Virus record (IMG/VR): IMGVR_UViG_3300045988_126619 | Location: 32,001 to 96,000 of that record | DNA from: a virus | DNA: 64,000 bases | Strand: one strand, 5' to 3' | Shown here: positions 7,516 to 62,139 of the stretch, piece after piece | Position numbering within the stretch: the stretch's first letter is position 1 | How the letters are laid out: the number at the start of each line of letters is the position of its first letter | Position numbers and translations under genes: made by a program | The notes under the pieces: model-generated | Seen by the model: only the letters and a program-made list of their open reading frames with translations | What the model was told of the DNA's origin: nothing | The model's database searches: none

Positions 7516-7702
7516 TTCTTTTCCTCTTTTCTATATAAATTTTTTGTGGGATTTATATAGATTCATATAAATCCTTATGACAGGAGCAAAACCCCACATA
7601 TTCTACTCTCTGTCAATGTCTAAGAATAGAACAGTTTTACTGCTCTCATAAAGATTTATATTGTTTATTTTGTGTTTGTATTGAATACTCTATTGTAAAT
7701 TA

Positions 7703-7731
7703 ATTATAACATATCATTTATTTTATGTCAA
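7703..7731 (-). promoter_or_regulatory. sigmaA-type promoter carrying the conserved motif
   Basis: TTGACA-17-TATAAT on the minus strand; the spacer holds AAAATAAATGATA. A second motif variant sits at 7659-7674. Confidence 0.6.
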
Positions 7732-7783
7732 CTATTTTTTTATATGATGTAGGGAAGAAATTCCTCCCTACATATTTGTATCT

Positions 7784-8125
7784 CTAAATTGTTCCACTTA
7801 CTTGTTGTTGTATTGCTCCAAGTTTTGCAACTTCTACGTTATTTTTAGAAGTAGATTCATTAATACATATAGCGTGAGCCATATCTTCTTCCATTCCTGC
7901 ACTAATTAAAGCTAAATACATTCCTGCATATCTTGAACCAATTTTAGCACCTTCTGCTAATTCCTTAACATCATAAGCTAATCCTCTTAAATTAGTTGTA
8001 TCCATACATGGAATTTCAGCTAATTTCTTAACTATTTCAACTAATTCTTCTTGTGAGTAATCTTCTAAATCTCTAGGCATTTCTTTTACTTTTTCTTCTA
8101 CTTGTTTATTATTTTCTCTTTCCAT
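7784..8125 (-). CDS. hypothetical protein
   Basis: ORF track; followed by hairpin GTAGGGAAGAAATTCCTCCCTAC at 7750-7772. Confidence 0.6.
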   Translation of the reverse strand: MERENNKQVEEKVKEMPRDLEDYSQEELVEIVKKLAEIPCMDTTNLRGLAYDVKELAEGAKIGSRYAGMYLALISAGMEEDMAHAICINESTSKNNVEVAKLGAIQQQVSGTI

Positions 8126-8137
8126 ATACAGTCACCT

Positions 8138-8713
8138 CTAACACATTATTTTATCTATTACTCCTAATTCTAACGCAGTTTCTGCATCAAAGAAGAAGTT
8201 TTCTTTTCTATCATATATTTCGTTGATACGTTCACGTGGAATTTTTGTAAGCTTTGCATAATAATCAGCGGATTTCTCCCAAAGTTTCTTTTGAAATTCA
8301 ACTTCTCTTTCAAATTCCTTTAGTTCTCCACCTTGTCCAAATGATGTTTGATGTAATAGATATTGACTTAATCCATATCCAATACGTTCATCACAATGAA
8401 TTATTATGTCAAATGCCATTGAATAAGCAATAGATTCAACTACACCAATAACCTTTATTTTATGTTTTTGTAATCTCTTAATATTACCTATAATAGCATT
8501 ACCATGAATAACACTTCCACCATATGAGTTAATTAATAATGTAACTGTTTTTATTTTTTTATCTTTCATTCCTAAACTATCGTAAGATTTATTATTCTCA
8601 ATAATTTTGTTAGCATAATAAGAAACTGCTACTGCCATTTCCTCATTTACTACACCATTTAAATATATTCTGCCTTGATTTGCGGAAGCGTGTTCCATCT
8701 CCATTATATTCAT
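8138..8713 (-). CDS. ClpP-family serine protease
   Basis: INSYGGSV, SIAYSMAFD (Ser) and LLHQTS (His) match the ClpP signatures INSPGGSV / HQP. Confidence 0.75.
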   Translation of the reverse strand: MNIMEMEHASANQGRIYLNGVVNEEMAVAVSYYANKIIENNKSYDSLGMKDKKIKTVTLLINSYGGSVIHGNAIIGNIKRLQKHKIKVIGVVESIAYSMAFDIIIHCDERIGYGLSQYLLHQTSFGQGGELKEFEREVEFQKKLWEKSADYYAKLTKIPRERINEIYDRKENFFFDAETALELGVIDKIMC

Positions 8714-8751
8714 ATTCTTCTACCCATTACCTATAAGGTATCTTTCTTTTT

Positions 8752-9957
8752 TTAATTTAAAACCATTGTATAAGTTTCTGTTATTCCCACATTTTCTTCA
8801 ATCTTAAATAATTTACACATAGCTTTTGAACCAACCATTAACTTATCAGCATAAGGGTCAGAACCTACAAAGCTAGGACATACAACTATTTCAGTATTTC
8901 CATTTAATTCTCCAACACTTAAAGATTGCCCACCATGAAAATGTCCCATAAAGCATAAATCATAAAATCTCTTATGTCTAACAGAAAAATCTTTGATTAC
9001 TTCTTTTATGTTCTTTATTTGATGTCCATGTAGTGTTATAATATTTTGACCACATAAACTGAAAGAATCATAGTCATAAAGAGATAATTTAACTTCTATT
9101 CTCTTATTTTCTGATACTAAATCAGATATATAATTTCCTATAATGTATTCCATATCTTCACTTGGCATTTCATTTGCTTTTGTTCCTAAATATCTGCATT
9201 GAGAGTGATTTGAGTTCATAGTATGTCTATATGTTATATAAACACATTTAGATAATTCATTTAAGAATGTAGCTATTAATCTGCTCACTTCAACTACTGC
9301 ATGAACTACTGGAACATCATTCAATTTAACGTCAGATATTCTTAACATTCCTTGTATAGAATCTCCTAATCCTATAACAGTAATGTGTGAAATTTTATTC
9401 TTTTTCACTATTTGTTTTGTCTTTTCTAATAGTATTTCAAATCTAAGTTTAACTTCATCTCTTGAATAACAATTGTTGTCTGATTCAAAATCAGCATTAT
9501 AATGAATGTCTGATAGTGCTAATAGATATTCTCCATTATTATCATTATGGATTTGAATTTTATCAAACTTTGGAAGTGGTAATGTTTCTATAGCATCCCT
9601 AACATTCTCATAAAACAATTCATATCTTGCATCTTTTGTATTATTTCTATTATATTCTACTTTCGTAGCTTGCATTTTCTTTCTAGCAATATCTAATTCT
9701 TTTATTTTTTCATCTAATTTCTTTAATTCTATTTCGTTACCATTTGTTGCAAACTCTTTTTCCCTGCAATAATATCCTTGATTAAAATTAGTAGCAGGAC
9801 ATCTAACGCTAGATTCTGATAATTGTGTTCCTGTGTTTTCTTTTATAATGTCATAAACCTGCAAATTATTTAAATTTAAATTTTCTTTTAATCTATAACA
9901 TCTAGCTGAATATTCAACAAATGATTCATCTTCTTTCTTAGTTAATCTCTTATCCAT
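8752..9957 (-). CDS. calcineurin-like metallophosphoesterase with N-terminal extension
   Basis: LALSDIHY, GLGDSIQG, TLHGHQ and GHFHGG motifs. Confidence 0.7.
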   Translation of the reverse strand: MDKRLTKKEDESFVEYSARCYRLKENLNLNNLQVYDIIKENTGTQLSESSVRCPATNFNQGYYCREKEFATNGNEIELKKLDEKIKELDIARKKMQATKVEYNRNNTKDARYELFYENVRDAIETLPLPKFDKIQIHNDNNGEYLLALSDIHYNADFESDNNCYSRDEVKLRFEILLEKTKQIVKKNKISHITVIGLGDSIQGMLRISDVKLNDVPVVHAVVEVSRLIATFLNELSKCVYITYRHTMNSNHSQCRYLGTKANEMPSEDMEYIIGNYISDLVSENKRIEVKLSLYDYDSFSLCGQNIITLHGHQIKNIKEVIKDFSVRHKRFYDLCFMGHFHGGQSLSVGELNGNTEIVVCPSFVGSDPYADKLMVGSKAMCKLFKIEENVGITETYTMVLN

Positions 9958-9980
9958 ATTTTTCTCCCCTATTGTTTATC

Positions 9981-10286
9981 TTATTTATAATATGATAAAT
10001 CTATTCTCATTAATCTCTCATTTAAAAATTCTTCATCTACTGCAAACCATTCATGATTATCTAAAATTCTTCTACTATTCAACATTGTATGAAGATGTTT
10101 CTCCAATAATTTATAATTTGAACATTGAATTTTAGTTAAAATCACTAATTCATCATTTATTCCATTAAATTTAAAGGAACGTTGTATTTGCTTAAATCTA
10201 TTGTCTATATTCTTTGAGCATCCAACTTTAATAACCATTTTGTCTTTAGTTGATTTTGTTTTATTTATAATAATATAAACGCCCAT
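9981..10286 (-). CDS. T5orf172 / GIY-YIG-like small nuclease-domain protein
   Basis: MGVYIIIN..IKVGCSKNIDNRFKQIQ pattern. Confidence 0.55.
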   Translation of the reverse strand: MGVYIIINKTKSTKDKMVIKVGCSKNIDNRFKQIQRSFKFNGINDELVILTKIQCSNYKLLEKHLHTMLNSRRILDNHEWFAVDEEFLNERLMRIDLSYYK

Positions 10287-10622
10287 TTTTACTTTCTATT
10301 ATATAAACAAATATTGTATCTATTACAATTTTATATTCAAATGTCCATTAAACAACTTTCTCACCTTTTAATTAATTCACCATTTAAAACCAAATTGATA
10401 AATTGTAATAAATAATTATAACTTGTACTCTAAAAAATAATATATTATTTGTAAGCTGTAACCTGTTATTTTGTCTGCATTACTTTTTCCTAAAAATTTA
10501 TTTTTTTAACTTGTTAGAATTTTACTTTACCTAATATAGTATATGTAAACAAGCTAGGAGCATTTATAAAAACACTCCTATCAAGCTACAGTAACAGAAT
10601 ACAATATTTGTTATAAACTATT

Positions 10623-11129: not shown

Positions 11130-11157
11130 ACTTATCATTCCCCTTTTCATCTTTTTA

Positions 11158-11313: not shown

Positions 11314-11469
11314 TTTAATCAACTCCTTACATATATTACATTATGGGAGGGGTACGAATACCCCAAACCATATAAATATGAAAGAGAGAAAAATAATATG
11401 AAAAATATGAATATCAATTAAGAACAAACAGACACGGATACTGTTTGCTCTATTATGGATACTCAAAAA

Positions 11470-11544: not shown

Positions 11545-11564
11545 ACATAAAAGAAAGACGAAGA

Positions 11565-11801: not shown

Positions 11802-11842
11802 ATTTAATTGTCCCCTTTTATTGTTTATTTTATTTACAAAAA

Positions 11843-13408: not shown

Positions 13409-13424
13409 TAATTTAAACAATAAA

Positions 13425-13730: not shown

Positions 13731-13783
13731 AATTCTTTTTCTCCTTTTCGTTTCTTAGATTTTTTATTATTGTTTATTTTATT

Positions 13784-15615: not shown

Positions 15616-15630
15616 TATTGTTTATTTTAT
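15616..15630 (-). promoter_or_regulatory. conserved motif variant upstream of the tRNA cluster
   Basis: ATAAAATAAACAATA on the minus strand, about 200 nt upstream of tRNA-Ser. The leader contains a UUCG-capped hairpin TTGACCT-TTCG-AGGTCAA (15518-15535). Confidence 0.5.
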
Positions 15631-19132: not shown

Positions 19133-19147
19133 TATCATTTATTTTAT
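19133..19147 (-). promoter_or_regulatory. conserved motif directly upstream of the RNAP gene RBS
   Basis: CATAAAATAAATGATAAGAGAGAGGTATG. The motif overlaps the stop codon of the upstream gene, and no TATAAT follows. Confidence 0.5.
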
Positions 19148-19867: not shown

Positions 19868-19896
19868 ATATTATCATTTATTTTATGCTTTGTCAA
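19868..19896 (-). promoter_or_regulatory. sigmaA-type promoter with motif in spacer
   Basis: TTGACA-17-TAATAT, spacer AAGCATAAAATAAATGA. Followed by leader hairpin 19843-19871. Confidence 0.6.
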
Positions 19897-22102: not shown

Positions 22103-22263
22103 ATTAATATCACCTCTTGAGTATATATTAACACATTCAAACACATTTGTCAACATTTTTATTAACTATTTTATCTCTCCTTTATAATTAATTTTATGTG
22201 GCTAGATATAATTTCTAACCACATTTATATCTTATCATTTATTTTATGTTCTATATACATTAT

Positions 22264-24072: not shown

Positions 24073-24142
24073 TTTTAATACACTCTCTTTCTTGCTATCA
24101 TTTATTTTATGTGGTTAAGATATAATTCCTAACCACATATAT

Positions 24143-24171
24143 ATATTATCATTTATTTTATTCCTTGTCAA
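24143..24171 (-). promoter_or_regulatory. sigmaA-type promoter with motif in spacer
   Basis: TTGACA-17-TAATAT. The leader hairpin at 24109-24138 is followed by a second motif copy (24096-24110) before the helicase RBS. Confidence 0.6.
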
Positions 24172-25325: not shown

Positions 25326-25350
25326 TTAAACACCTCTTTTATCATTTATT

Positions 25351-25911
25351 TTATTTGTTGTCAATAATATTGAGTAATGTGATAATATCTTCAATGTCAT
25401 TCCAATTAGTACATCTAACTCCATCCCAATTTTTATTCCATTCATAATATCCAAAACAAATAGCATAATTTGCCACAGCACCACTTAAACATTCTATTTT
25501 ATCGTCTATTATAATATCACATGGAATAGCTTGTTTTTCTTCAAATCTATCCACAAACATTAACTTACAATTAGGAAAATATTTTGAAATAAATTCACTA
25601 GTTACTGGTTTTCTACTTTCTTCATGTTTACTACAGAATATAATTTCATGTTCTCCTGTTTTTGCTAATCTATTAATAGATTCTAATGCTCCATAAGTGA
25701 AATGTAAATATTTTTCATCATAGAACTTTTCATAATCGAAATACTGAAATAATTCACCTAATTCAGCTTTGTCTTTAACAATTGGATTTAAGTTCCAATC
25801 ATGATTTCTTGTATATACCAATTTATTGTTTGGATTATGGTCGTTATAAATTTTTACTAACATTTGTATACTTTCTATTATTGTTGAATCAATATCTATT
25901 ACTATCTTCAT
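25351..25911 (-). CDS. HAD-superfamily 5'(3')-deoxyribonucleotidase-like hydrolase
   Basis: N-terminal IDIDSTI (DxDxT). Size and layout resemble NT5C-type nucleotidases. Confidence 0.6.
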   Translation of the reverse strand: MKIVIDIDSTIIESIQMLVKIYNDHNPNNKLVYTRNHDWNLNPIVKDKAELGELFQYFDYEKFYDEKYLHFTYGALESINRLAKTGEHEIIFCSKHEESRKPVTSEFISKYFPNCKLMFVDRFEEKQAIPCDIIIDDKIECLSGAVANYAICFGYYEWNKNWDGVRCTNWNDIEDIITLLNIIDNK

Positions 25912-25945: not shown

Positions 25946-25974
25946 ATTATATCATTTATTTTATGTCTTTGCAA
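25946..25974 (-). promoter_or_regulatory. sigmaA-type promoter with motif in spacer
   Basis: TTGCAA-17-TATAAT, spacer AGACATAAAATAAATGA. Confidence 0.6.
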
Positions 25975-26549: not shown

Positions 26550-26782
26550 TAATCCTCCCACGCTTTAGCATTGTTTATTTTATTATAAACATAATCAATT
26601 GTATATAATGGCATTGTTTCATATTCCTCTAATAAATCATTTAAACAGTGCATCCTGTCTTCTATAACTTTTATCAATACTTCTGAGTTGGTATTCATCA
26701 AATGAGATTCTAATTTAATCTTTTCATCAATAATTTTGTTCCTTTGTTCGTTTAGTTGCATAAAGGTTAATCCTTCTTTCAT
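26549..26782 (-). CDS. hypothetical protein
   Basis: Track ORF trimmed to ATG 26782 with AGGAGGAAT RBS. Confidence 0.5.
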   Translation of the reverse strand: MKEGLTFMQLNEQRNKIIDEKIKLESHLMNTNSEVLIKVIEDRMHCLNDLLEEYETMPLYTIDYVYNKINNAKAWED

Positions 26783-27105: not shown

Positions 27106-27310
27106 ATAAATCATCTCCCTTATCATTTATTTTATGTATTAATTATAACATAATAATTTATATAATACAAGTACAAAAATTTGTTTTTTTGAATAAAGTT
27201 TAAATATTATCTTTTTATTATTCTAACTCTACCAATAAAATATTATCTTTGTACTTGTAAAGTAATATATGAACGAATGTGAATATGTTACTTATTATAC
27301 TTAGAGTTTA

Positions 27311-28605: not shown

Positions 28606-28624
28606 ATATTTTTCTCCTTATAAT

Positions 28625-28807
28625 TTATTTTATGTTTATATGCCAATTATGGCAGTTTTCTTTTCCCACACATCTAAAACAACAACTGCTTCCATCTTCA
28701 CAGCCATAAATTCTTCTTTCCTGTGGTATTTCATCAACTTCTTTTAACCATTCTTCTAATGGTGTCATAAAATCTTCATCATATTTTTTATTTGACATAG
28801 TTATCAC
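28625..28807 (-). CDS. small Cys-rich protein
   Basis: CEDGSSCCFRCVGKENCHNWH. The motif overlaps its stop codon. Confidence 0.5.
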   Translation of the reverse strand: MITMSNKKYDEDFMTPLEEWLKEVDEIPQERRIYGCEDGSSCCFRCVGKENCHNWHINIK

Positions 28808-28833
28808 TCCTTTATCATTTATTTTATGTTTAT

Positions 28834-32337: not shown

Positions 32338-32403
32338 ATTGTCGATAGGACATCGGCAAACAATAAAGAAATAAAATAAATGATAAGAATGGAGAGATGT
32401 AAA

Positions 32404-33072: not shown

Positions 33073-33109
33073 TATAAAATAAACAATAAATAGAAATGGA
33101 GGGTTCAAT

Positions 33110-34280: not shown

Positions 34281-34371
34281 GCATAAAATAAACAATAATA
34301 TATAAATTAGAATTATGAGAAAAATATAGAATTATTTTAAATAATTTAAAGAAATTTTTAATTATTTATAG

Positions 34372-34400
34372 TTTACAATACATAAAATAAATGATATAAT
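34372..34400 (+). promoter_or_regulatory. sigmaA-type promoter with motif in spacer
   Basis: TTTACA-17-TATAAT, followed by a 10-bp leader hairpin at 34401-34430. Confidence 0.6.
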
Positions 34401-35251: not shown

Positions 35252-35280
35252 TTGACATTACATAAAATAAATGATATAAT
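35252..35280 (+). promoter_or_regulatory. sigmaA-type promoter with motif in spacer
   Basis: TTGACA-17-TATAAT, spacer TTACATAAAATAAATGA. Confidence 0.65.
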
Positions 35281-36607: not shown

Positions 36608-36651
36608 TTCTTTGCTATTTACACAAAATAAACAATAAGCGAGGTATAAAT

Positions 36652-37952: not shown

Positions 37953-37981
37953 TTGACATAAAATAAATGATATAGTATAAT
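37953..37981 (+). promoter_or_regulatory. sigmaA-type promoter with motif in spacer
   Basis: TTGACA-17-TATAAT, spacer TAAAATAAATGATATAG. Confidence 0.65.
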
Positions 37982-40821: not shown

Positions 40822-40871
40822 ATTTGAAAATTATATGAATATAAAATAAAATAAACAATAGGAGTGATTAA

Positions 40872-41512: not shown

Positions 41513-41514
41513 AC

Positions 41515-43621: not shown

Positions 43622-43651
43622 ATCTTTACACCTCTTATTATTTATTTTATG

Positions 43652-43768: not shown

Positions 43769-43818
43769 AATTTTATTACCACCTTTACATTTTTTGTTAT
43801 CATTTATCTTATGTACTC

Positions 43819-43847: not shown

Positions 43848-43935
43848 CATTTTAAGTAATATTTTTATTAATTATTTTATGTTATATATTATATATAATG
43901 TAGAGAAAATTTTAATAATATTTTTACTTAAAATG

Positions 43936-43964
43936 TTGACATAAGATAAACAATAATATATAAT
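43936..43964 (+). promoter_or_regulatory. sigmaA-type promoter (divergent pair, rightward)
   Basis: TTGACA-17-TATAAT, spacer TAAGATAAACAATAATA. Confidence 0.6.
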
Positions 43965-44919: not shown

Positions 44920-44965
44920 ATAGGCATAGTAAACGAACAAAATAAATGATAAGGAGCGATAAGAT

Positions 44966-46441: not shown

Positions 46442-46470
46442 TTGACATAAAATAAATTATAATATATAAT
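46442..46470 (+). promoter_or_regulatory. cassette promoter
   Basis: TTGACA-17-TATAAT with the motif in the spacer. Upstream box AAAAGTTATTAAAAAGTTG. Confidence 0.6.
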
Positions 46471-46538: not shown

Positions 46539-46567
46539 TTGACAAAGCACAAAATAAATGATATGAT
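46539..46567 (+). promoter_or_regulatory. second tandem promoter
   Basis: TTGACA-17-TATGAT, spacer AAGCACAAAATAAATGA. Confidence 0.55.
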
Positions 46568-47666: not shown

Positions 47667-47695
47667 TTGACAACACACAAAATAAATGATAATAT
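47667..47695 (+). promoter_or_regulatory. cassette promoter
   Basis: AAAACTTTATTAAAAAGTA-TTGACA-17-TAATAT with the motif in the spacer. Confidence 0.6.
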
Positions 47696-48174: not shown

Positions 48175-48203
48175 TTGACACAACATAAAATAAATGATAT
48201 AAT
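48175..48203 (+). promoter_or_regulatory. cassette promoter
   Basis: AAAACTTTATTAAAAGTG-TTGACA-17-TATAAT with the motif in the spacer. Confidence 0.65.
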
Positions 48204-48252
48204 AAGTACATAAACTAAATCAAATAAATAATATGAAAAGGTGGTAATAAGT

Positions 48253-49566: not shown

Positions 49567-49595
49567 GTTGACATAAAATAAATTATACTGTATAA
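49567..49595 (+). promoter_or_regulatory. cassette promoter
   Basis: AAAACTTTATTAAAAGTG-TTGACA-17-TATAAT. A second motif copy at 49635-49649 precedes the RBS. Confidence 0.65.
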
Positions 49596-49666
49596 TGTAA
49601 GTATAGTAAATGATTAAAGCAAATCAAATAAAAAATAAAATAAATGATATGGAAAGAGGTAATAAT

Positions 49667-50969: not shown

Positions 50970-50998
50970 TTGACGTAAAATAAAATAAATGATATTAT
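50970..50998 (+). promoter_or_regulatory. cassette promoter
   Basis: AAAACTTTATTAAAAAGTG-TTGACG-17-TATTAT with the motif in the spacer. Confidence 0.6.
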
Positions 50999-52354: not shown

Positions 52355-52534
52355 ATGTTAAATATATTAAATAATGTTACTTTAATTCTAGGATACTCAT
52401 GTTATGTTGTAATTGCTTATATAGCGTTTGTATTAGCTTGTATAAGAATTGAAAAGGCAATTAAAAGGAAGAGAAAAACAAAAGCGTTAAAGGAGCGTAA
52501 AAAAAGATTTATGGAGGTTTTAAAATCAGCATAA
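52355..52534 (+). CDS. small membrane protein (59 aa) with basic tail
   Basis: AGGAGG RBS. TM segment LILGYSCYVVIAYIAFVLAC, then a K/R-rich tail. Confidence 0.5.
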   Translation: MLNILNNVTLILGYSCYVVIAYIAFVLACIRIEKAIKRKRKTKALKERKKRFMEVLKSA

Positions 52535-52563
52535 AATAATCAATAAAGTTTTTACTAAAAGTA

Positions 52564-52592
52564 TTGACAATAAATAAAATAAATGATAATAT
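52564..52592 (+). promoter_or_regulatory. cassette promoter
   Basis: AAAGTTTTTACTAAAAGTA-TTGACA-17-TAATAT with the motif in the spacer. Confidence 0.6.
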
Positions 52593-55054: not shown

Positions 55055-55214
55055 AAAAGCAGGAATACATTATACTATCTCTTTTATATTGCGGTTATTA
55101 GCTTCATATAGAGGTTTTATAAATGTTCGTGATAAATTATTTAACTAAAAATAAAAGGCTTGTATAAAGCTAATAAGAGTATTAGAAATAAAATAAATGA
55201 TATTGTAAAATATG

Positions 55215-55243: not shown

Positions 55244-55296
55244 AATACTTGTAAGGAACGAACTTACAATAAATAAAATAAATACTAAAAAAGGTG

Positions 55297-55325
55297 TTGA
55301 CAATACACAAGATAAATGATACAAT
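55297..55325 (+). promoter_or_regulatory. sigmaA-type promoter before the recombinase gene
   Basis: TTGACA-17-TACAAT, spacer has motif variant ACAAGATAAATGA. Confidence 0.55.
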
Positions 55326-55360: not shown

Positions 55361-56335
55361 ATGAAAAAATACCTATACGAACAATATTTCAACGAACTAA
55401 ATGAAGATTTAAAAGTTGGTAAGGTTAGGGAAAACACTTACAAATCAAAGAAAAGTGATTTGAACACGCTTTACAATTATATGGCAGAACTTGGCTATAC
55501 AACAGAAAAAGATTTTTTTGAAAATGTTAGGCAATCAGATATAGACCAGTTTGCAGAACAATTAAAAACACAATATAAACCTTCCACATATAACAGAAAA
55601 ATAGCAACATTTAAAAAGTTTTTTAACTATCTAATTGACAATTCTTATATAGTTAATGTAAACTATTTTAACAATATTAAACAAATATCTAATGATATAG
55701 TGGAGGAAAAGACAAAAGAAAAAGATATTATTTCTATTGATAAAGTAAAAATGTTGTTAAATGCAACAGAAGAAAAAGACCAAGAAAAACAAAGTACATT
55801 TGAGTTTAATGCAAAAAGAAATAAAGCAATAATTACTATTTTAACTTGTTATGGTAGTAGAATTGAAGAAATTTTATCAACAAAGTTTTCAGACATAAAG
55901 GAAACAGAGAATAAAATTCAATATATAGATATTCCAAAAACTAGAGTTAAAAATCGCTTGCATAAAAGAATATTTATTGCAAATGCTATAAAAGAAAGCT
56001 TGGAGGAATATTTAAAAATCAGAAATGAAGTTCTACCATACAATGAAGATGATTATATATTCAGTAGTGTAAATGGTAAAAAATTGACTAGCAATAACAT
56101 AAATGAAGCATTAAGCAACTTATGTAAAAAAGCAAATATAAATAAACATATCACGTGTCATTGTTTTAGACATATTTGCACGTTAGCATTACAAGAAAAA
56201 TCAATACCAGAATACGACATTGATTATATTATAGGTTGGAAAAAGGGGGATTCTATGCAACAGAGATATTCAAAACATATGCCAATAGAAAAGATTAATA
56301 AAATTATATCCGCCACGGATTTACTGCAAAAATAG
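55361..56335 (+). CDS. tyrosine recombinase / phage integrase family
   Basis: YGSRIEEIL (R), HCFRHICT (HxxR), IGWKKG, QRYSKH (Y). N-terminal SAM-like core-binding domain. Confidence 0.8.
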   Translation: MKKYLYEQYFNELNEDLKVGKVRENTYKSKKSDLNTLYNYMAELGYTTEKDFFENVRQSDIDQFAEQLKTQYKPSTYNRKIATFKKFFNYLIDNSYIVNVNYFNNIKQISNDIVEEKTKEKDIISIDKVKMLLNATEEKDQEKQSTFEFNAKRNKAIITILTCYGSRIEEILSTKFSDIKETENKIQYIDIPKTRVKNRLHKRIFIANAIKESLEEYLKIRNEVLPYNEDDYIFSSVNGKKLTSNNINEALSNLCKKANINKHITCHCFRHICTLALQEKSIPEYDIDYIIGWKKGDSMQQRYSKHMPIEKINKIISATDLLQK

Positions 56336-56640: not shown

Positions 56641-56689
56641 TATTAACAAATACGAAAATAAATGATAAAAAAAAGGAGATGTATTCCAA

Positions 56690-57991
56690 TTGGAAAAATT
56701 AAGAATGTTAATAAATGAAATCATAGTAGAATATAGAAAGGACATGAAATTTATTCAAGAAGTAAGAAGAAGTTTCGCACAAAAAGGACTAGACACAAAT
56801 ATTCCTGCTATGTTATTCAAAAATCAAATGGAGGTCGAAGACCTTGAAGTAAATGAATTAATATGTTTGACAGAATTTTTATATACAGAACTTAATCAAG
56901 AAAGATTTAGTTTAAAAAAATATTTTTCAGATATGGAAATCAGCAATTATAAAGTTTATCAACAACCCAATAAAGAAACACAAACAAATAATATTGTTCA
57001 TATCGAAGAGGTAAGAATGATTACTGATATCGAGTACGTTGTTCCAATGACTGCAAAACAATTAACAGAATTAAGACAAAATAGACAATATGCTTACTTT
57101 AAAGATATTCAAAGATGTACTAAAAAGGAAAAATTACCTAATGGGGACATCATAGAAAAAATTAATGTTAATAAACAAGGAATTGAAAGCTTAAAATCAA
57201 GATTTAAAGACAAAGAACGATATATTGTGCCAACCGAAATAAGTTTTACTATTTTAGACATTGAAAATAAAAATCCACAATATCAATTTATACCACAATA
57301 TAAAAATACTGGAGATTTAAATATAAAGATTAATTTTGATATAGATAGTGACGAATATACACCACTAATAATAAACGATGGCTACCATAGATTAACTGCA
57401 ATAACTGATGCTTATTTAGAAGATAACAGTATTGCAGATAAACAACTAGTAGTCGGTATTCATGTTTTAACAGAAGTTCAAGCAAAAGATTTGACTGCCG
57501 ATACTTTCAAACAAAATGCAACAGATAAACAATGGATTGATAGTTTGAAATTCACAAAAGAAAATCAAATAATAGATATGTTAATACAAAAATCAGTATT
57601 TTTAAGTGAAAACAATATTGTAAATAGTAAAAGAGATTTTGTGAGAGATACAAAAGCAATTACTTATAGAGTTTTATTAAAACAAGGTATAAAATTATTA
57701 AATTTAACATTTAATAATGATATAACTATGACAAGAAATGTAACTAAAATTGCTAAAAACTTAGATATATTACTCAATTATTTAAAAGATGAATATAGAG
57801 AACTATTTCATAGAGATTGTTTATTATTTGAAAAAGCATTTATTATGTTTCTTGCAATAGCGAGTGATTTAAATAATGACATTATATCTATTGGTCAATT
57901 AGGGGATAAAATTGTAAATTTAAATTTTGAAGAGTTAAAACAAAAATCAGAGCAAGAATTGTACGAAATAGTGCAAAACATTAATTTTTAA
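56690..57991 (+). CDS. ParB/Srx-fold DGQHR-like (DndB-like) domain protein
   Basis: LIINDGYHRLTAI resembles the DGQHR / ParB-nuclease motif. 433 aa with a TTG start. Confidence 0.4.
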   Translation: MEKLRMLINEIIVEYRKDMKFIQEVRRSFAQKGLDTNIPAMLFKNQMEVEDLEVNELICLTEFLYTELNQERFSLKKYFSDMEISNYKVYQQPNKETQTNNIVHIEEVRMITDIEYVVPMTAKQLTELRQNRQYAYFKDIQRCTKKEKLPNGDIIEKINVNKQGIESLKSRFKDKERYIVPTEISFTILDIENKNPQYQFIPQYKNTGDLNIKINFDIDSDEYTPLIINDGYHRLTAITDAYLEDNSIADKQLVVGIHVLTEVQAKDLTADTFKQNATDKQWIDSLKFTKENQIIDMLIQKSVFLSENNIVNSKRDFVRDTKAITYRVLLKQGIKLLNLTFNNDITMTRNVTKIAKNLDILLNYLKDEYRELFHRDCLLFEKAFIMFLAIASDLNNDIISIGQLGDKIVNLNFEELKQKSEQELYEIVQNINF

Positions 57992-58005: not shown

Positions 58006-58983
58006 ATGAAAATGGAAAAATTTAAACAATATATAGAAGAAACAACAAACGAAGGGCAATTAAATAAGTATCAAAAAAATAAATTACAATGGCTTTATGA
58101 TAGTAAATATTCATATAATTCAAAATTGAATTTTTGGAAATTATTTAAAAGAAATGTTGATTTTGTAGAGTTGGAAAAGAATAAAGATGTTTATGATTTT
58201 GATAGACAAGAAATAATTGATTTAATTAAAAACACACCTACGACAAAAGTTTCAACAAAGTTAACAATATTTAGTATGATAAGTAGGTATATTGATTGGG
58301 CGGTTCAAAGAGGATTTAATTACATGGGTAATCCTTGCGATACTATCAATGTACACAAGATTTTAGATATTGATACAGAGGTAACAAAGGAACAATATAA
58401 ATCTCTACATGACTTTTATGATTGGTTAGGACAATTAAAAAGAGCAACACCAGTTGATAAAATGATTTTATTAATGTTGAGATATGGTATAGATGTCAAA
58501 AATATTGGAGAAATAAAAATGCAAGATATGGATATAGAAAAGAATATTTTACATTGTAAAAATGGTGATATAGAAGTATCCTTACCTATTGATGAAGAAT
58601 TTATTCAGATGGCAATAAAATCTAATGAATGTATAGAATCAGATGATGTAAGTTATATTGTTTCAGACTATATTGCAAAAGTACAAACAAATATGCAAGT
58701 TCCGACTTTAGATAAAACAGTAATTTATAACAGGATTAATGTTATTTTTAAAAGAGCAGAAGAAAAAAGAATATCTATTCCTTTATTAAATTTAAGTAGA
58801 AGATATGACATCTTATATAACAAATATCTTCTTAACGGAGAAGTTACAATTGATGATGTAAAGGAAACATTAAAGATATTTAATGGTAAATTTACACCAA
58901 ATCAAGCGTTAACATTAAAAAGGAATTTTGAATTGGCGATGGGTGGAGAAATTAAAGTCAATACATTTAGAACAAGAAAATAA
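58006..58983 (+). CDS. integrase-like protein with apparently degenerate catalytic domain
   Basis: N-terminal core-binding-like region (ISRYIDWAVQRGF..GNPC) and LLMLRYGIDVKNIGEIK box I-like R. No clear HxxR..Y by eye. Confidence 0.35.
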   Translation: MKMEKFKQYIEETTNEGQLNKYQKNKLQWLYDSKYSYNSKLNFWKLFKRNVDFVELEKNKDVYDFDRQEIIDLIKNTPTTKVSTKLTIFSMISRYIDWAVQRGFNYMGNPCDTINVHKILDIDTEVTKEQYKSLHDFYDWLGQLKRATPVDKMILLMLRYGIDVKNIGEIKMQDMDIEKNILHCKNGDIEVSLPIDEEFIQMAIKSNECIESDDVSYIVSDYIAKVQTNMQVPTLDKTVIYNRINVIFKRAEEKRISIPLLNLSRRYDILYNKYLLNGEVTIDDVKETLKIFNGKFTPNQALTLKRNFELAMGGEIKVNTFRTRK

Positions 58984-59966: not shown

Positions 59967-59984
59967 TAAAGAGAGGTAATAAAC

Positions 59985-60335
59985 ATGAGTATAATATCAA
60001 AAATAGAAAGAGCAATAAAGACAGTTAATCAAGGACAATCAGTAATGTATATGGAAACTGAAATCTCACCACGAGATTTTGGCAAAAAAGAGCCACAAAA
60101 TAAACAACAACCACAATCTTTTGAAGATGTATTAAATAGCGTTAGACAACTGAATTTAAATACCAAAACTTATAAATCAGTAAGTAAATTGCCAAAAACA
60201 AAAGGTTCAAATGCTAATATTACTTACAACAATGCTAGAGAATTAAATAGAATATTAAGTCAATGTAAAGATAAGTATGAAACTTGTAATGTATTTGACC
60301 ACATGGGAGTAGTTTCACTAGTAAACAGAAAATAA
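59985..60335 (+). CDS. hypothetical protein
   Basis: ORF track, AGAGAGG RBS. Confidence 0.55.
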   Translation: MSIISKIERAIKTVNQGQSVMYMETEISPRDFGKKEPQNKQQPQSFEDVLNSVRQLNLNTKTYKSVSKLPKTKGSNANITYNNARELNRILSQCKDKYETCNVFDHMGVVSLVNRK

Positions 60336-60360
60336 ATAAAATAAATTATAGGTGATTAAA

Positions 60361-61707
60361 ATGAAACTCAGAGATTATCAGCAAGAATGTGTAGATAAAA
60401 TGATTAATATGGATAAAAACATAAAAGGTATTGCGTGTATCCCAACAGGTGGAGGAAAGACAATTTTAATGTCAGAAATCGCAAGAAACACAAATGGTAG
60501 AATATTAATAGTAGTGATGAATACAGAGTTAAGAGAACAAACAATTGATAAATTAAAAATGGTTTGTGGAAGTTCTGTAGATGTTGGGAGTGTTCAAGGT
60601 AGCTTAAAAGAGTATGATAATAAAATAATAGTAGCAACTAGACAAACATTAACTAGTAAGAGTTTTAATGCTTTTAGATTATTAGATAAAGGTAATTTTG
60701 ATTTAATAATGTTTGATGAATGTCACGTGGCTATAGAGCAACAACAATTAATATGCTTAATGTTAGCAACAGAAAACACAAAAGTAATAGGATTTACTGC
60801 AACGCCTTATAATTTAGACATGAAATATCTCTATGATGAAATCATTTATAAAAGAGAATTAATAGATATGATTAATGAAGGTTATTTAGTTAAACCAGTT
60901 TGTATGCAAGTAAAATCAGATACAAATTTAGATGATATAAAAATCAGATTTGGGGACTTTAATAAAAGGCAATTAGGGGAAAAAGTCAATAATGAAGTAA
61001 GAAATAAATTGATTCTACAATCATATGTTGATATGTGTCAAGATAGAAATAAAACACTTATATTTACAACAAATGTAAAGCATAGTCAAGCAATTGCAGA
61101 ATGTTTTGTGCAAAATGGAATATCAGCAAAATCAATTGATGGAAGTTGTTCAAAAACTGAACGAAAGCAAATATTTAATGATTTTGAAACTGGAAAAATA
61201 AAAGTATTAGTAAATGTGGATATATGTACAATAGGGTTAGATATCCCAAGTATAGACTGTGTCATATTTGCTAGACCAACAAAAAGTAAAGGTTTGTATA
61301 TACAAATGCTAGGGCGTGGGTTAAGACTATCGCCACAAACAGGAAAAACTGATTGTTTAGTAATTGATATAGTTGATGTAACAACAAAACACAATTTAAT
61401 TAATGGAAAAACTGTATTTGATGTAGATGTTGAAGAAAAACAAAATAAAAAGAAGAAAGTGACAAAAAAAGAAATACTTGAAGCAATAGAAGAAGAATAC
61501 GAGGAACAAAAACAACAAGAATATATAGAGGATATACAACTAGACATTAATATCTCACCAAGCTATGAAGATACTAATATTTTAGTTGAAATGTCAGAAA
61601 AATTAAATCCTTTTGTAAAATCAGCTAAAAAGAAAGTTGAATCCTTAAAGAAAAATTATACCAAAATGAAACAATTAACTAAAAAGATATTTAATATATT
61701 TAAATAA
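60361..61707 (+). CDS. SF2 DEAD/DEAH helicase (type III restriction res-subunit-like fold)
   Basis: LRDYQ, PTGGGKT, MFDECHV, FTATP, QMLGRGLR. Start moved to ATG 60361. The motif at 60336-60350 abuts the RBS. Confidence 0.75.
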   Translation: MKLRDYQQECVDKMINMDKNIKGIACIPTGGGKTILMSEIARNTNGRILIVVMNTELREQTIDKLKMVCGSSVDVGSVQGSLKEYDNKIIVATRQTLTSKSFNAFRLLDKGNFDLIMFDECHVAIEQQQLICLMLATENTKVIGFTATPYNLDMKYLYDEIIYKRELIDMINEGYLVKPVCMQVKSDTNLDDIKIRFGDFNKRQLGEKVNNEVRNKLILQSYVDMCQDRNKTLIFTTNVKHSQAIAECFVQNGISAKSIDGSCSKTERKQIFNDFETGKIKVLVNVDICTIGLDIPSIDCVIFARPTKSKGLYIQMLGRGLRLSPQTGKTDCLVIDIVDVTTKHNLINGKTVFDVDVEEKQNKKKKVTKKEILEAIEEEYEEQKQQEYIEDIQLDINISPSYEDTNILVEMSEKLNPFVKSAKKKVESLKKNYTKMKQLTKKIFNIFK

Positions 61708-61721
61708 GAGAGGTGTTTAAT

Positions 61722-62000
61722 ATGAGAAAAACTATTATAGGGATGTTATTAATATATACACTTGGATTAATGGGTTGTGGAACTCCTAATAACGTTATAA
61801 AAGGAACTATAATTGATGTTGAATGTAGTATGAATAAAAATTATCTTATCATAGAAACAAATAGTGGTAATTCGATTAAGTTAAGAGCCAGTTTGGAAAA
61901 AACTATTATGTATCAAAAGGGGACAAAAATTCAATTCACTTATGATAGATATGATGGATATATAAAATACTTATATTTAGATGAAGGGCAGAACAGTTAA
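61722..62000 (+). CDS. lipoprotein
   Basis: Lipobox LGLMGC. Start moved to ATG 61722. Confidence 0.6.
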   Translation: MRKTIIGMLLIYTLGLMGCGTPNNVIKGTIIDVECSMNKNYLIIETNSGNSIKLRASLEKTIMYQKGTKIQFTYDRYDGYIKYLYLDEGQNS

Positions 62001-62139
62001 ATAAAACTTGTAAAAGAATTAATAGAAGAAGGTGATAAAAATGATATGGGGCAAGTTATTCCTCCAAAAACCAATATGTTAACTTATTATTAAAAACGAT
62101 TTACACAAAAAATAAATAACAAAAAGAGAGGGATTAAAT

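What the first reader, a model, noticed from the sequence alone, without database searches (positions are those of the whole stretch)
7659..62120. 15-nt motif ATAAAATAAA(TG/CA)ATA recurs more than 40 times, always co-oriented with the next gene, in two different contexts
I located copies by eye on both strands. Minus-strand copies start at 7659, 7712, 11819, 13768, 15616, 19133, 19872, 22233, 24096, 24147, 25340, 25950, 27121, 28619, 28813, 43636 and 43798. Plus-strand copies start at 32371, 33074, 34283, 34382, 35262, 36622, 37958, 40846, 43941, 44937, 46447, 46549, 47677, 48185, 48917, 49572 and 49635. Further plus-strand copies start at 50980, 51015, 52574, 55188, 55273, 55305, 56653 and 60336. 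In context A the motif fills the 17-nt spacer of a near-consensus TTGACA/TATAAT promoter, often with a conserved upstream box AAAACTTTATTAAAAGTG. In context B it lies 0-6 nt upstream of the Shine-Dalgarno sequence with no usable -10 downstream of it, sometimes overlapping the preceding stop codon (19133, 28619). In that context it often lies downstream of a separate TATAAT (27142, 28834, 43819, 44914). The motif is better conserved than the hexamers, and its offset from the -35 varies from 1 to 6 nt. It therefore looks like an independent signal. It could be a promoter for a phage RNAP or sigma factor, a regulator site, or an RNA-level 5'-UTR element.
Basis: seen in the sequence. Interest (0 to 1): 0.7.

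Follow-up and report, generated by a model that had tools for sequence, protein, structure and literature searches.

The report
Repressor operator boxes of SPβ-like phage
The recurring 15-base motif is real and is most likely the binding box of this phage's integrase-shaped master repressor, the same kind of box already described in Bacillus phages SPβ and phi3T, so it is a new example of a known system rather than a new signal.

Summary
There are 27 exact and 47 one-mismatch copies of ATAAAATAAAYRATA, against 0.05 and about 2 expected from strand-aware shuffles. Every copy points the same way as the local genes.

The conserved core is 17 bp (AC-ATAAAATAAAYRATA). It sits in discrete places:
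- inside the 17-nt spacer of sigma-A-type promoters, in only two registers (-1 or +4 from the -35 hexamer);
- at +1 of a promoter, or directly before a Shine-Dalgarno sequence;
- just upstream of a -35 hexamer.

The window is an SPβ-like phage (homologues of YonO, YonJ, YonG and the YopQ-YopR pair). In SPβ a 15-bp repeated element (SPBRE) is bound by the master repressor MrpR/SroF. In phi3T, SroF clamps an asymmetric A-tract box as a monomer. I re-derived both boxes. They show the same contexts and the same strict co-orientation as the motif here.

The window encodes a MrpR/SroF homologue at 58006-58983. The evidence is a Pfam MrpR_N_CB match, a profile-profile alignment, and an AF2 model whose best PDB match is phi3T SroF bound to DNA.

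The best reading is therefore that the motif is the operator of this repressor (confidence about 0.78). Binding was not tested. A YonO polymerase promoter and an RNA leader element are weaker alternatives. This is a new member of a known kind, of modest interest.

The parts
58006..58983 (+). MrpR/SroF(YopR)-type repressor homologue, 325 aa (proposed binder of the motif)
   Evidence: Pfam MrpR_N_CB 41 bits, cut-off 27. BLASTP to SPβ YopR: 22% over 249 aa, E 5e-6. hhalign 89.7% over 230 columns. AF2 model pLDDT 79.8; top Foldseek hits are phi3T SroF-DNA 9rd5, YopR 8bj6 and MrpR 8a0a.
56690..57991 (+). YopQ/SroE homologue directly upstream of the repressor gene
   Evidence: BLASTP to SPβ YopQ E 2e-13 over 448 columns. 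Its only hits among the phage records are yopQ of SPβ-family phages.
55361..56335 (+). Tyrosine-integrase-family gene in the position of yopP/sroD
   Evidence: Pfam Phage_integrase 82 bits. Pairwise similarity to YopP is not significant, so the assignment rests on position only.
7712..7726 (-). box, exact TG; class A register -1 (TTGACA/17/TATAAT)
7659..7673 (-). box, 1 mismatch, CA; in the leader downstream of the 7712 promoter, ahead of the ANT-like gene and the late cluster
9970..9984 (-). box, 1 mismatch, CA; class B, abuts the SD of the YonJ-like exonuclease gene
11819..11833 (-). box, exact CA; class B, TATAAT 8 nt upstream, SD 1 nt downstream
13768..13782 (-). box, exact CA; follows a tRNA-like 3' end, SD 21 nt downstream (gene 13425-13730)
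15616..15630 (-). box, exact CA; about 200 nt upstream of the tRNA cluster, no ORF start nearby
19133..19147 (-). box, exact TG; class B, overlaps the end of the preceding ORF, SD of yonO 5 nt downstream
   Evidence: SPβ and phi3T carry degenerate boxes at the same position before yonO.
19872..19886 (-). box, exact TG; class A register +4 (TTGACA/17/TAATAT)
22233..22247 (-). box, exact TG; TGATAAGAT extended -10-like, no -35; followed by a hairpin and a degenerate copy (22183) before the TnpB SD
24147..24161 (-). box, exact TG; class A register +4
24096..24110 (-). box, exact TG; class B before the SD of the UvrD-like helicase, downstream of the 24147 promoter and its leader hairpin
25340..25354 (-). 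box, exact TG; TTGACA at +4 but no usable -10; overlaps the preceding stop codon; SD adjacent
25950..25964 (-). box, exact TG; class A register +4 (TTGCAA/17/TATAAT)
26569..26583 (-). box, 1 mismatch, CA; class B within the 3' end of the upstream ORF, SD 9 nt downstream
27121..27135 (-). box, exact TG; class B, TATAAT ends 6 nt upstream so the box starts at about +1; SD adjacent
28619..28633 (-). box, 1 mismatch (TT); class B, overlaps the end of the upstream ORF; SD adjacent
28813..28827 (-). box, exact TG; class B, TTTACA/17/TATAAT ends 6 nt upstream; SD adjacent
32371..32385 (+). box, exact TG; class B, promoter 32306-32334 lies 36 nt upstream; SD 5 nt downstream
33074..33088 (+). box, exact CA; class B, right after the stop of the preceding ORF
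34283..34297 (+). box, exact CA; 2 nt after a hairpin plus T-run, about 90 nt upstream of the 34372 promoter
34382..34396 (+). box, exact TG; class A register +4 (TTTACA/17/TATAAT)
35262..35276 (+). box, exact TG; class A register +4 (12/12 consensus promoter)
36623..36637 (+). box, 1 mismatch, CA; class B, SD 3 nt downstream
37958..37972 (+). box, exact TG; class A register -1 (12/12 consensus promoter)
40846..40860 (+). box, exact CA; class B, SD adjacent
43636..43650 (-). box, exact (TA); class B before the 69-aa minus-strand ORF
43798..43812 (-). box, 1 mismatch, TG; TTGACT/17/TATAAT ends 6 nt upstream, so the box is at about +1
43866..43880 (-). box, 1 mismatch; TATAAT 7 nt upstream; lies just upstream of the 43798 promoter
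43941..43955 (+). box, 1 mismatch, CA; class A register -1
44937..44951 (+). box, 1 mismatch, TG; class B, TATAAT 17 nt upstream, SD adjacent
46447..46461 (+). box, 1 mismatch (TT); class A register -1
46549..46563 (+). box, 1 mismatch, TG; class A register +4
47677..47691 (+). box, 1 mismatch, TG; class A register +4 (paralogous early cassette)
48185..48199 (+). box, exact TG; class A register +4 (paralogous early cassette)
48219..48233 (+). box, 1 mismatch; class B copy of the same transcription unit, SD 4 nt downstream
49573..49587 (+). box, 1 mismatch (TT); class A register -1 (paralogous early cassette)
49635..49649 (+). box, exact TG; class B copy of the same unit, SD 6 nt downstream
50980..50994 (+). 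box, exact TG; class A register +4 (TTGACG/17/TATTAT)
52531..52545 (+). box, 1 mismatch; upstream of the -35 of the 52574 promoter
52574..52588 (+). box, exact TG; class A register +4
55188..55202 (+). box, exact TG; 12 nt upstream of a TTGACA/TATAAT promoter (placement as at SPβ aimR)
55273..55287 (+). box, 1 mismatch; 9 nt upstream of the -35 of the integrase-gene promoter
55307..55321 (+). box, 2 mismatches, TG; class A register +4 in the promoter of the yopP-position integrase gene (head of the repressor operon)
56653..56667 (+). weak box, 2 mismatches, upstream of the YopQ-like gene
60336..60350 (+). box, 1 mismatch (TT); class B before the SD of the SNF2-type helicase; kept at the orthologous place in relative L017
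16234..19122 (-). YonO-type single-subunit RNA polymerase (the polymerase of the rival explanation; not part of the operator system)
   Evidence: tblastn: 34-37% identity to SPβ-family yonO and relatives over about 85% of the length.

Best explanation
The motif is the operator ('box') of the phage's master repressor, a monomeric protein of the MrpR/SroF (YopR) family with an integrase-like fold, encoded at 58006-58983. The element is the counterpart of the SPβ repeated element (SPBRE) and of the phi3T SroF box. In a lysogen, or late in the lysis-lysogeny decision, the repressor would clamp around each 17-bp-core box.

Inferred mode of repression, by box position:
- Boxes in the promoter spacer. 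In register +4 the box covers the extended -10 TG and the first two bases of the -10. In register -1 it covers the -35 edge and the spacer. Either way it would exclude host sigma-A RNA polymerase.
- Boxes at about +1 to +15, or immediately before a Shine-Dalgarno sequence, would block open-complex formation or promoter escape, or act as roadblocks to read-through inside operons.
- Boxes just upstream of a -35 hexamer would block UP-element or -35 access.

What is shown: the statistics and anatomy of the boxes; the SPβ-like gene content; the presence, synteny and fold of the repressor homologue; and the identical site architecture of the experimentally validated SPβ and phi3T boxes.

What is inferred: that this protein binds this box, and the mode of repression at each class of site.
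For: 1. Enrichment and orientation. 27 exact copies against 0.05 expected, and all copies co-oriented with genes.

2. Gene content. The phage is SPβ-like: YonO; YonJ, YonG, YonD and YonB Pfam families; and a YopQ homologue next to a MrpR_N_CB protein.

3. The repressor homologue. hhalign to YopR plus phi3T SroF gives 89.7% over 230 columns. MrpR/YopR are the only PDB sequence hits. The AF2 model (pLDDT 79.8) has as top Foldseek hits phi3T SroF bound to DNA (E 8e-12), YopR, MrpR and the SroF-Sar complex. These score far better than generic tyrosine recombinases.

4. Literature. MrpR ChAP-seq peaks at ten SPβ promoters share a 15-bp motif that equals SPBRE, and MrpR represses PaimR and PyosX (PMC10516654). 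SroF binds as a monomer that nearly encircles DNA. It reads 24 of 26 bp of an asymmetric box built on two A-tracts, partly by DNA shape (bioRxiv 10.1101/2025.11.27.690993).

5. Re-derivation in SPβ. ACAAAWAATATGTATA occurs at 11 sites, which are exactly the ten published target genes. All are co-oriented with their gene. Five sit in a TAGACA-17-TATAAT spacer with the box's last TA forming the start of the -10. Others abut the SD with a -10 a few nt upstream (yopV, yopM, yonX). One lies just upstream of a -35 (aimR).

6. Re-derivation in phi3T. 17 boxes in 50 kb, all co-oriented, in the same contexts, including operon-internal SD-adjacent ones and one before yonO.

7. Box similarity. The phi3T core GAATAAAAATAAAAT resembles the window's CATAAAATAAAT.

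8. Relatives.
   - Relatives with a 75%- and a 61%-identical repressor keep the box, the latter as ATAAAATATATGATA. This holds even where the promoter relationship changed.
   - More distant relatives of the phage have different oriented A-rich boxes in the same positions: L004 and D-1873 (reached through YonO) and L024 (39% repressor).

9. The variable dinucleotide. It is TG, CA or TA in 40 of 44 boxes. These are pyrimidine-purine steps, and TG and CA are the same base-pair step in duplex DNA. This fits duplex or shape readout better than single-strand or RNA readout (inference).
Against: - No binding or repression data exist for this phage.
- The repressor is only about 22% identical to YopR, and the box sequence differs from both known boxes.
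- Only 17 bp are conserved, against the 24 bp contacted in phi3T.
- There are many more sites here (about 45 in 64 kb) than the roughly 11 in SPβ.
- Several sites lack any recognisable promoter (28619, 33074, 40846, 60336).
- In a near-identical contig, exact CA-type boxes lie in the late structural region, one of them between the capsid gene and its terminator (L012 16197 and 21341).
- A simple operator model does not by itself require strict co-orientation or adjacency to the SD.
- No Sar-like antirepressor with a LexA box was recognised next to the repressor gene.
Confidence: 0.78

Rival explanations
1. The motif, or its CA variant, is the promoter recognised by the phage's YonO-type single-subunit RNA polymerase. 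Transcription would start at or near the 3' end of the motif, giving short leaders that begin just before the Shine-Dalgarno sequence.
For: - The phage encodes YonO, and the YonO promoter sequence is undefined in the literature (PMC5467207).
- The sites are many, oriented and highly conserved, like T7-type promoters.
- Lineage-specific motif variants track YonO-bearing lineages.
- Among SD-adjacent boxes, all 7 in the arm downstream of yonO, including the late region, are CA variants, against 5 of 19 elsewhere.
- The SPβ interval bracketed by the published P_YonO primer-extension primers contains TTAAACAATAT, which resembles the CA half of the motif.
Against: - In SPβ, YonO starts at a single site upstream of yonK and is needed only for 37 late genes (PMC5467207).
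- The homologous repeated elements in SPβ and phi3T are bound by the repressor. They precede early genes that lie outside that late cluster (PMC10516654).
- Here the motif is dense among early and replication genes and absent from the 7.6 kb of late genes in the window.
- It precedes yonO itself.
- Its placement in two exact registers inside sigma-A promoter spacers is what an operator needs, not a second promoter.
- The SPβ transcription start could not be mapped onto the sequence, so the TTAAACAATAT resemblance is untested.
Confidence: 0.07
2. The motif acts in the mRNA as a 5'-leader element next to the ribosome-binding site. It could be a translational enhancer or repressor site, or a processing site for a phage or host RNase such as the beta-CASP protein at 11843-13297.
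For: - Strict sense orientation (47/47).
- About 20 copies end 0-9 nt before a Shine-Dalgarno sequence, and several form the entire 5' leader when a -10 lies 6-8 nt upstream.
- Some copies sit between genes of an operon, where no promoter is needed.
- The phage encodes a beta-CASP/RMMBL protein.
Against: - Class A copies lie upstream of their own transcription start, so they would be absent from that RNA.
- No Rfam family matches at the sites.
- The TG/CA alternation preserves a duplex base-pair step but changes the RNA sequence.
- The late, highly expressed genes lack the motif.
- The homologous elements in SPβ and phi3T are demonstrated protein-bound DNA sites (PMC10516654; bioRxiv 10.1101/2025.11.27.690993).
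Confidence: 0.06
3. The motif is an operator for some other phage DNA-binding regulator (an activator or shut-off factor not identified here), not for the MrpR/SroF homologue.
For: - The link between this protein and this box rests on homology and analogy only.
- The box sequence differs from SPBRE and from the phi3T box.
- Many small ORFs of unknown function are present.
Against: The complete SPβ-type package is present: a YopQ-YopR pair, a box with A-tracts, and the same site architecture. The box co-varies with repressor divergence in relatives. No other candidate regulator was found.
Confidence: 0.05
4. The motif has no separate function. It is a favoured sigma-A promoter spacer plus extended -10 sequence, spread by duplication of promoter cassettes.
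For: - In register +4 the motif's TGATA supplies the extended -10 TG and the first TA of the -10. All the register +4 copies carry TG (10 scored, plus 25950 and 55307 read from the sequence).
- A subset of promoters at 46-53 kb are clearly paralogous cassettes.
Against: - About half of the copies are not in a promoter spacer.
- Copies occur in two registers, at +1, upstream of -35 hexamers and inside operons.
- The motif stays exact where the hexamers decay (25340).
- Orthologous genes in a relative keep the box but change its relation to the promoter.
Confidence: 0.03

Closest known systems
SPBRE (SPβ repeated element) and the master repressor MrpR/YopR/SroF of Bacillus phage SPβ (Lazarevic 1999 as cited in, and Kohm et al. 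2023, PMC10516654)
   Same: - A repeated, non-palindromic, A-rich element of about 15 bp, dispersed over the early region.
- Every copy is co-oriented with the downstream gene.
- Copies sit in the 17-nt spacer of sigma-A promoters with the box's terminal TA forming the start of the -10, or abut the SD just downstream of a -10, or lie just upstream of a -35.
- The repressor gene follows a YopQ homologue.
- The phage also carries homologues of YonO, YonJ, YonG, YonD and YonB.
   Different: - Box sequence: ACAAAWAATATGTATA in SPβ, ACATAAAATAAAYRATA here.
- About 11 sites in 134 kb in SPβ, about 45 in 64 kb here.
- The repressor is only about 22% identical.
- The genome has 26% G+C, the host is unknown and probably not Bacillus, and no arbitrium genes were recognised.
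- A TG/CA dimorphism and exact copies in the late region are seen here but not in SPβ.
SroF box of Bacillus phage phi3T (crystal structure of the monomeric SroF-DNA complex, PDB 9rd5; bioRxiv 10.1101/2025.11.27.690993)
   Same: - An asymmetric operator built on two consecutive A-tracts (phi3T AATAAAAATAAAAT; here ATAAAATAAAT).
- Many copies (17 in 50 kb), all in sense orientation, including operon-internal SD-adjacent ones and one before yonO.
- The predicted structure of the window protein matches SroF-DNA best.
   Different: - In phi3T 24 bp are contacted, while only 17 bp are conserved here.
- The flanking specific bases differ.
- The Sar antirepressor with its LexA control was not identified here.
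Promoters of phage-encoded RNA polymerases (T7-type 23-bp promoters; the uncharacterised promoter of SPβ YonO, PMC5467207)
   Same: Many highly conserved, strictly oriented copies upstream of genes. The phage encodes its own RNA polymerase.
   Different: - The copies sit in fixed registers inside host-type promoters.
- They are concentrated at early genes.
- The family precedent (SPβ) has one YonO start site and late-gene specificity.
- The homologous elements are repressor-bound.

Membership tests
SPBRE / SroF-box operator system of SPβ-like phages | The phage encodes a MrpR/SroF (YopR)-family protein (N-terminal core-binding domain plus catalytic-like domain). | tested here: met
   Pfam MrpR_N_CB 41 bits against a cut-off of 27. 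Homologues at 75-84% identity also hit MrpR_C_cat. hhalign gives 89.7% with E 1.9e-6 over 230 columns against YopR plus phi3T SroF. MrpR/YopR are the only PDB sequence hits.
SPBRE / SroF-box operator system of SPβ-like phages | The repressor has an integrase/tyrosine-recombinase fold that is closest to SroF/MrpR. | tested here: met
   AF2 model pLDDT 79.8, pTM 0.66. Foldseek ranks 1-7 are phi3T SroF-DNA (E 8e-12), YopR, MrpR and SroF-Sar. XerA, Cre and lambda Int follow at E >= 3e-6. TM-scores are only 0.4-0.55, probably because of domain orientation.
SPBRE / SroF-box operator system of SPβ-like phages | Loss of recombinase catalytic residues (no catalytic tyrosine). | tested here: inconclusive
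   There is no Tyr in the last 51 residues. No residue-level structural alignment of the catalytic hexad was made.
SPBRE / SroF-box operator system of SPβ-like phages | The repressor gene is the last gene of a yopP-yopQ-yopR (sroD-E-F) type operon. | tested here: met
   The order is integrase-family gene 55361-56335, YopQ homologue 56690-57991 (E 2e-13; the only phage-database hits are yopQ), then the repressor 58006-58983. The integrase gene is not detectably similar to YopP.
SPBRE / SroF-box operator system of SPβ-like phages | An asymmetric, A-tract-containing box of 15-26 bp, present in many dispersed copies in the phage genome. | tested here: met
   The core is 17 bp. There are 27 exact copies against 0.05 expected.
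SPBRE / SroF-box operator system of SPβ-like phages | The boxes overlap or abut early sigma-A promoters (spacer, +1 region, or upstream of the -35). | tested here: met
   Registers -1 and +4 in at least 15 promoters, -10 hexamers 6-8 nt upstream of 5 boxes, and 3 boxes just upstream of a -35. The same placements were re-derived for SPβ and phi3T.
SPBRE / SroF-box operator system of SPβ-like phages | The repressor binds the box and represses transcription. | not testable with these tools
   This needs EMSA, ChIP or reporter assays.
SPBRE / SroF-box operator system of SPβ-like phages | A Sar-type antirepressor under LexA control near the repressor gene. | tested here: inconclusive
   There is no GAAC-N4-GTTC box within 58-61 kb. 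The only intergenic one is at 43328. The small ORFs downstream of the repressor gene have no Pfam hit.
Promoter of a YonO-type phage RNA polymerase | The element precedes the genes that depend on the phage polymerase (late genes in SPβ). | tested here: not met
   There is no <=1-mismatch copy in the late genes at 1-7600. The copies are dense at early and replication genes and before yonO itself. A few CA copies occur in the late region of a near-identical contig.
Promoter of a YonO-type phage RNA polymerase | Transcription starts at a fixed distance from the element and depends on the polymerase. | not testable with these tools
   There are no transcript data. The published SPβ start site could not be converted to sequence coordinates.
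Sigma-A promoter element (spacer, extended -10 or UP element) | A fixed position relative to the -35 and -10 hexamers. | tested here: not met
   There are two registers within spacers, plus copies downstream of the -10, upstream of the -35 and without hexamers.
Structured or curated RNA element | A match to a described RNA family, or presence in the transcript at all sites. | tested here: not met
   Rfam gathering-threshold hits in the window are tRNAs and RAGATH-18 only. Class A copies lie upstream of their own predicted start site.

The most novel reading that the evidence does not exclude
The box may be more than a passive operator. Its strict sense orientation holds here in 47 of 47 copies, and also in all 11 SPβ and 17 phi3T boxes I scanned. 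Its placement directly against ribosome-binding sites, and the clustering of the CA variant downstream of yonO and in the late region, would then reflect a second, strand-specific role. One possibility is that CA-type boxes double as start sites or entry points for the YonO polymerase, which would define the still-unknown YonO promoter. Another is that the clamp-like repressor acts as a polar roadblock, or that the box acts as an mRNA leader.
Probability: 0.12. Interest if true: 0.65.

Novelty: new member of a known kind. Interest (0 to 1): 0.3.

Why it matters
The finding extends the SPβ-type repression system beyond Bacillus phages. That system combines a monomeric integrase-fold repressor with dispersed asymmetric A-tract boxes. 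Here it appears in a very AT-rich 159-kb phage seen repeatedly in metagenomes.

The phage carries a divergent repressor (about 22% identity) and a different box sequence. This offers a natural specificity variant for studying how SroF-type proteins read DNA sequence and shape.

The result also gives a ready annotation rule for such phages: box plus -35/-10 marks a repressed early promoter.

Finally, it highlights a feature I did not find discussed in the papers read here. The boxes are always in sense orientation and often abut the ribosome-binding site.

Tried and rejected
- Near-identity search of 20 kb against phage genomes found only trivial hits.
- Mapping the published SPβ YonO start site (B. 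subtilis 168 coordinate 2225998) onto the SPBc2 sequence failed. The primer-extension primers bracket a 240-nt interval. An exact scan of genome contigs for the primer found nothing. Neither the text nor the supplements gave convertible coordinates. The TTAAACAATAT resemblance there therefore stays untested. It is conserved in phi3T, but so is the whole region.
- The window motif is at chance level in C. botulinum phage D-1873 and absent from relatives whose YonO is 31-55% identical. It is therefore lineage-specific, and only analogous motifs exist there.
- tblastn of the repressor against phage genomes gave no hit.
- IMG/VR scans with the repressor profile, the YopQ-like protein and the helicase did not recover the repressor region of the L004 lineage. 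The link between the L004 and D-1873 motifs and a repressor is therefore untested.
- The first AF2 model, from 5 sequences, was too poor to use (pLDDT 54).
- The generic sigma-70 scan is uninformative overall in this AT-rich DNA (160 hits against 174 expected). Only its top hits are useful.
- The repeated 14-mer in L024 turned out to be a separate 65-nt-period array, not a box.

Full report
**Observation**

ATAAAATAAAYRATA occurs 89 times at <=2 mismatches, against 19.3 +/- 4.4 in shuffles. The coding strand is A-rich, so I repeated the test on a joined 'transcribed strand' with dinucleotide shuffles. That gave 27 exact copies against 0.05 expected, and 47 copies at <=1 mismatch against about 2.4 expected.

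All copies point the same way as the local genes. The three minus-strand copies in the right arm (43636, 43798, 43866) precede minus-strand ORFs.

Three <=1-mismatch copies are inside coding sequence and are probably incidental: 16190 in a GIY-YIG ORF, and 16407 and 18363 in the polymerase gene.

**Anatomy**

Aligning 44 non-coding copies shows two further conserved positions upstream: A at -2 (36/44) and C at -1 (26/44, against a 9% C background). The flanks beyond that are unconserved, so the core is 17 bp, AC-ATAAAATAAAYRATA. The variable dinucleotide is TG in 23 copies, CA in 12, TA in 5 and TT in 4.

The copies fall into these positions:
- Inside host-type promoters the box sits in only two registers relative to the -35 hexamer.
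  - Register -1 has its first A as the last base of TTGACA (7712, 37958, 43941, 46447, 49573).
  - Register +4 is scored at ten promoters, with 25950 and 55307 read the same way from the sequence.
  - In register +4 the box's TGATA supplies the extended -10 TG and the first TA of the -10. All of these copies carry TG.
- About 20 copies end 0-9 nt before a Shine-Dalgarno sequence.
  - Five of them have a -10 hexamer 6-8 nt upstream, so the box starts at about +1 (27121, 28813, 43798, 43866, 11819).
  - Others overlap the preceding stop codon with no promoter in sight (19133, 28619, 33074).
- Three copies lie just upstream of a -35 hexamer (52531, 55188, 55273).

Five of the six best consensus promoters between 19 and 39 kb carry a box.

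**The genome**

The window belongs to a 159-kb contig found in several metagenomes. It is a 26% G+C phage with portal, terminase and helicase genes.

The 962-aa protein at 16234-19122 is a homologue of YonO, the single-subunit two-barrel RNA polymerase of Bacillus prophage SPβ. Neighbouring genes carry YonJ, YonG, YonD and YonB Pfam families. At 55.4-59.0 kb there is an integrase-family gene, then a YopQ homologue (E 2e-13; its only hits among 50,697 phage records are yopQ genes), then a 325-aa protein with the MrpR_N_CB domain.

**The link to known biology**

For YonO, one start site upstream of yonK is known, and the promoter sequence is explicitly undefined (PMC5467207).

SPβ has a second relevant system. 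Its master repressor MrpR (YopR, SroF) has a tyrosine-recombinase fold. It binds a 15-bp motif identical to the 'SPβ repeated element' (SPBRE) at ten promoter regions, and it represses PaimR and PyosX (PMC10516654). A 2025 preprint shows that phi3T SroF binds as a monomer that nearly encircles the DNA. It reads 24 of 26 bp of an asymmetric box built on two A-tracts, partly through DNA shape (10.1101/2025.11.27.690993).

I re-derived the SPβ element from the published target promoters. ACAAAWAATATGTATA occurs at 11 sites, which are exactly the ten published genes. Every copy is co-oriented with its gene. Their contexts are the ones seen in the window:
- Five sit in a TAGACA-17-TATAAT spacer, with the terminal TA forming the start of the -10.
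- yopV, yopM and the second yonX copy abut the Shine-Dalgarno sequence just downstream of a -10.
- The aimR copy lies just upstream of a -35.

In 50 kb of phi3T the box core GAATAAAAATAAAAT occurs 17 times. All copies are in sense orientation and in the same contexts, including operon-internal copies and one before yonO. The window, SPβ and phi3T each have a box or degenerate box directly before the yonO ribosome-binding site.

**The repressor homologue**

The evidence is as follows:
- BLASTP to YopR gives 22% identity over 249 residues, E 5e-6.
- MrpR/YopR are the only PDB sequence hits.
- A profile of five homologues aligns to YopR plus phi3T SroF at 89.7% probability over 230 columns.
- A first AF2 model was unusable.
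- A second model, from nine homologues, reached pLDDT 79.8.
- That model's best PDB matches are phi3T SroF bound to DNA (E 8e-12), YopR, MrpR and the SroF-Sar complex. These are well ahead of XerA, Cre and lambda Int.
- There is no tyrosine in the last 51 residues. I did not verify loss of the catalytic set.

**Relatives**

- A relative whose repressor is 75% identical keeps the box at ten places in 21 kb. These include orthologous genes where the box has moved from a promoter spacer to a +1/SD position.
- A 61% relative has ATAAAATATATGATA.
- A 39% relative has AAAAYAAATTATAT at promoter and SD positions.
- Two relatives were reached through YonO. L004 (55% identity) and C. botulinum phage D-1873 (36% identity) lack the window's motif. 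They have their own oriented boxes in the same contexts: AAAC-AAATTAATGTATAA (SPBRE-like) and AAC-AAAATTAAATTAAA. I could not reach the repressor genes of these two lineages.

**Mechanism**

The most economical reading is that each box is an operator for the MrpR/SroF-type repressor.
- In register +4 it would cover the extended -10 and the -10.
- In register -1 it would cover the -35 edge and the spacer.
- At +1 it would block open-complex formation or escape.
- Inside operons a DNA-encircling monomer could act as a roadblock.

Monomeric binding to an asymmetric site explains why the box is not palindromic.

TG and CA are the same base-pair step in duplex DNA, and 40 of 44 boxes have a pyrimidine-purine step there. 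This suggests duplex or shape readout. The exclusive use of TG in register +4 is explained by its second job as the extended -10. The binding and these modes of action are inferred, not shown.

**Rivals**

- A YonO promoter is attractive because that promoter is unknown. Among SD-adjacent boxes the CA variant accounts for 7 of 7 downstream of yonO and in the late region, against 5 of 19 elsewhere. However, the SPβ precedent (one start site, late genes only), the early-gene distribution here and the repressor-bound homologous elements argue against it.
- An RNA leader role would explain the orientation and the SD adjacency. But spacer copies are not transcribed from their own promoter, and TG/CA changes the RNA.
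- A pure promoter-architecture or duplication explanation fails on the positional data.

What the operator model leaves unexplained is the strict sense orientation, the very high site number, and exact boxes in the late region, one of them between the capsid gene and its terminator (L012 16197).

**Verdict**

It is best filed as a new, divergent member of the SPBRE/SroF-box operator system, in a non-Bacillus-type SPβ-like phage. Interest is modest.

Noticed in passing
window 41200-43420: A 2.2-kb stretch between the gene arms has almost no coding potential. It holds an iteron-like array at 42161-42642 (units GGTTTGACA-N14-TTGTTCTAAG-N15-GAATAC, with inverted TTTGTCAA copies). It also has three ATATACCCCCyCCC boxes at 41315-41469 and a (CA)n run near 41930. 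This is a candidate replication origin or partition site.
   Followed up: partly
window 43328-43339: A LexA/Cheo-type box, GAACTATTGTTC, lies 9 nt upstream of a TATAAT in the non-coding region next to the divergent promoter cluster. In phi3T the antirepressor Sar is LexA-controlled, but no Sar-like gene was identified here.
   Followed up: no
window 20785-22156 (-): A TnpB (OrfB_IS605 / Cas12f1-like TNB) gene is followed by a RAGATH-18 RNA (71 bits). This is presumably its guide-type RNA, inserted between the UvrD-like helicase and the yonO region. Phage D-1873 has a transposase at the same place.
   Followed up: no
window 15804-16277 (-): A GIY-YIG-type ORF overlaps the 3' end of yonO. It contains an exact copy of the motif (16190) as coding sequence (…NKINNK…). 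This shows that a few copies are incidental.
   Followed up: partly
window 11843-13297 (-): A metallo-beta-lactamase / beta-CASP / RMMBL protein has a weak Anti-Pycsar Apyc1 Pfam hit. It could be an RNase J-like enzyme or a cyclic-nucleotide anti-defence enzyme.
   Followed up: no
window 7659-15630 and 33074-40860; L012 16197 and 21341: The CA form of the box is regionally clustered. All SD-adjacent or leader copies downstream of yonO, and the two exact copies in the late structural region of a near-identical contig, are CA. One of those late copies sits between the capsid-like gene and its terminator hairpin. The arm upstream of yonO (19-29 kb) and the 44-56 kb early arm are almost all TG.
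   Followed up: partly
L001 4511-4530 (SPBc2 about 60510-60529, minus strand): The SPβ interval bracketed by the published P_YonO primer-extension primers contains GATTAAACAATATCTA, which resembles the CA half of the window motif. It is conserved in phi3T, but so is the whole surrounding region. The published start coordinate could not be mapped.
   Followed up: partly
window 46400-52650: A series of paralogous small early genes. Each has AAAACTTTATTAAAA(A)GTGTTGACA, a box in the spacer, a second and often degenerate box before the SD, and the SD/start AAAGGTGGTAATAnnnATG. This inflates the count of 'independent' motif copies.
   Followed up: partly
L024 13301-13640: A contig carrying a 39%-identical MrpR-like gene ends in six copies of a 29-nt repeat (GTTTAATAAGTATTATATTAATTATAAAG) spaced about 65 nt apart. 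This looks like a CRISPR-like or iteron array.
   Followed up: no
window 13783-13830 (-): The sequence just upstream of box 13768 ends like a tRNA (…GGTTCAATTCCTGTGACACCGA), but ARAGORN and Rfam call no tRNA there. It may be a truncated or unusual tRNA next to the tRNA cluster.
   Followed up: no
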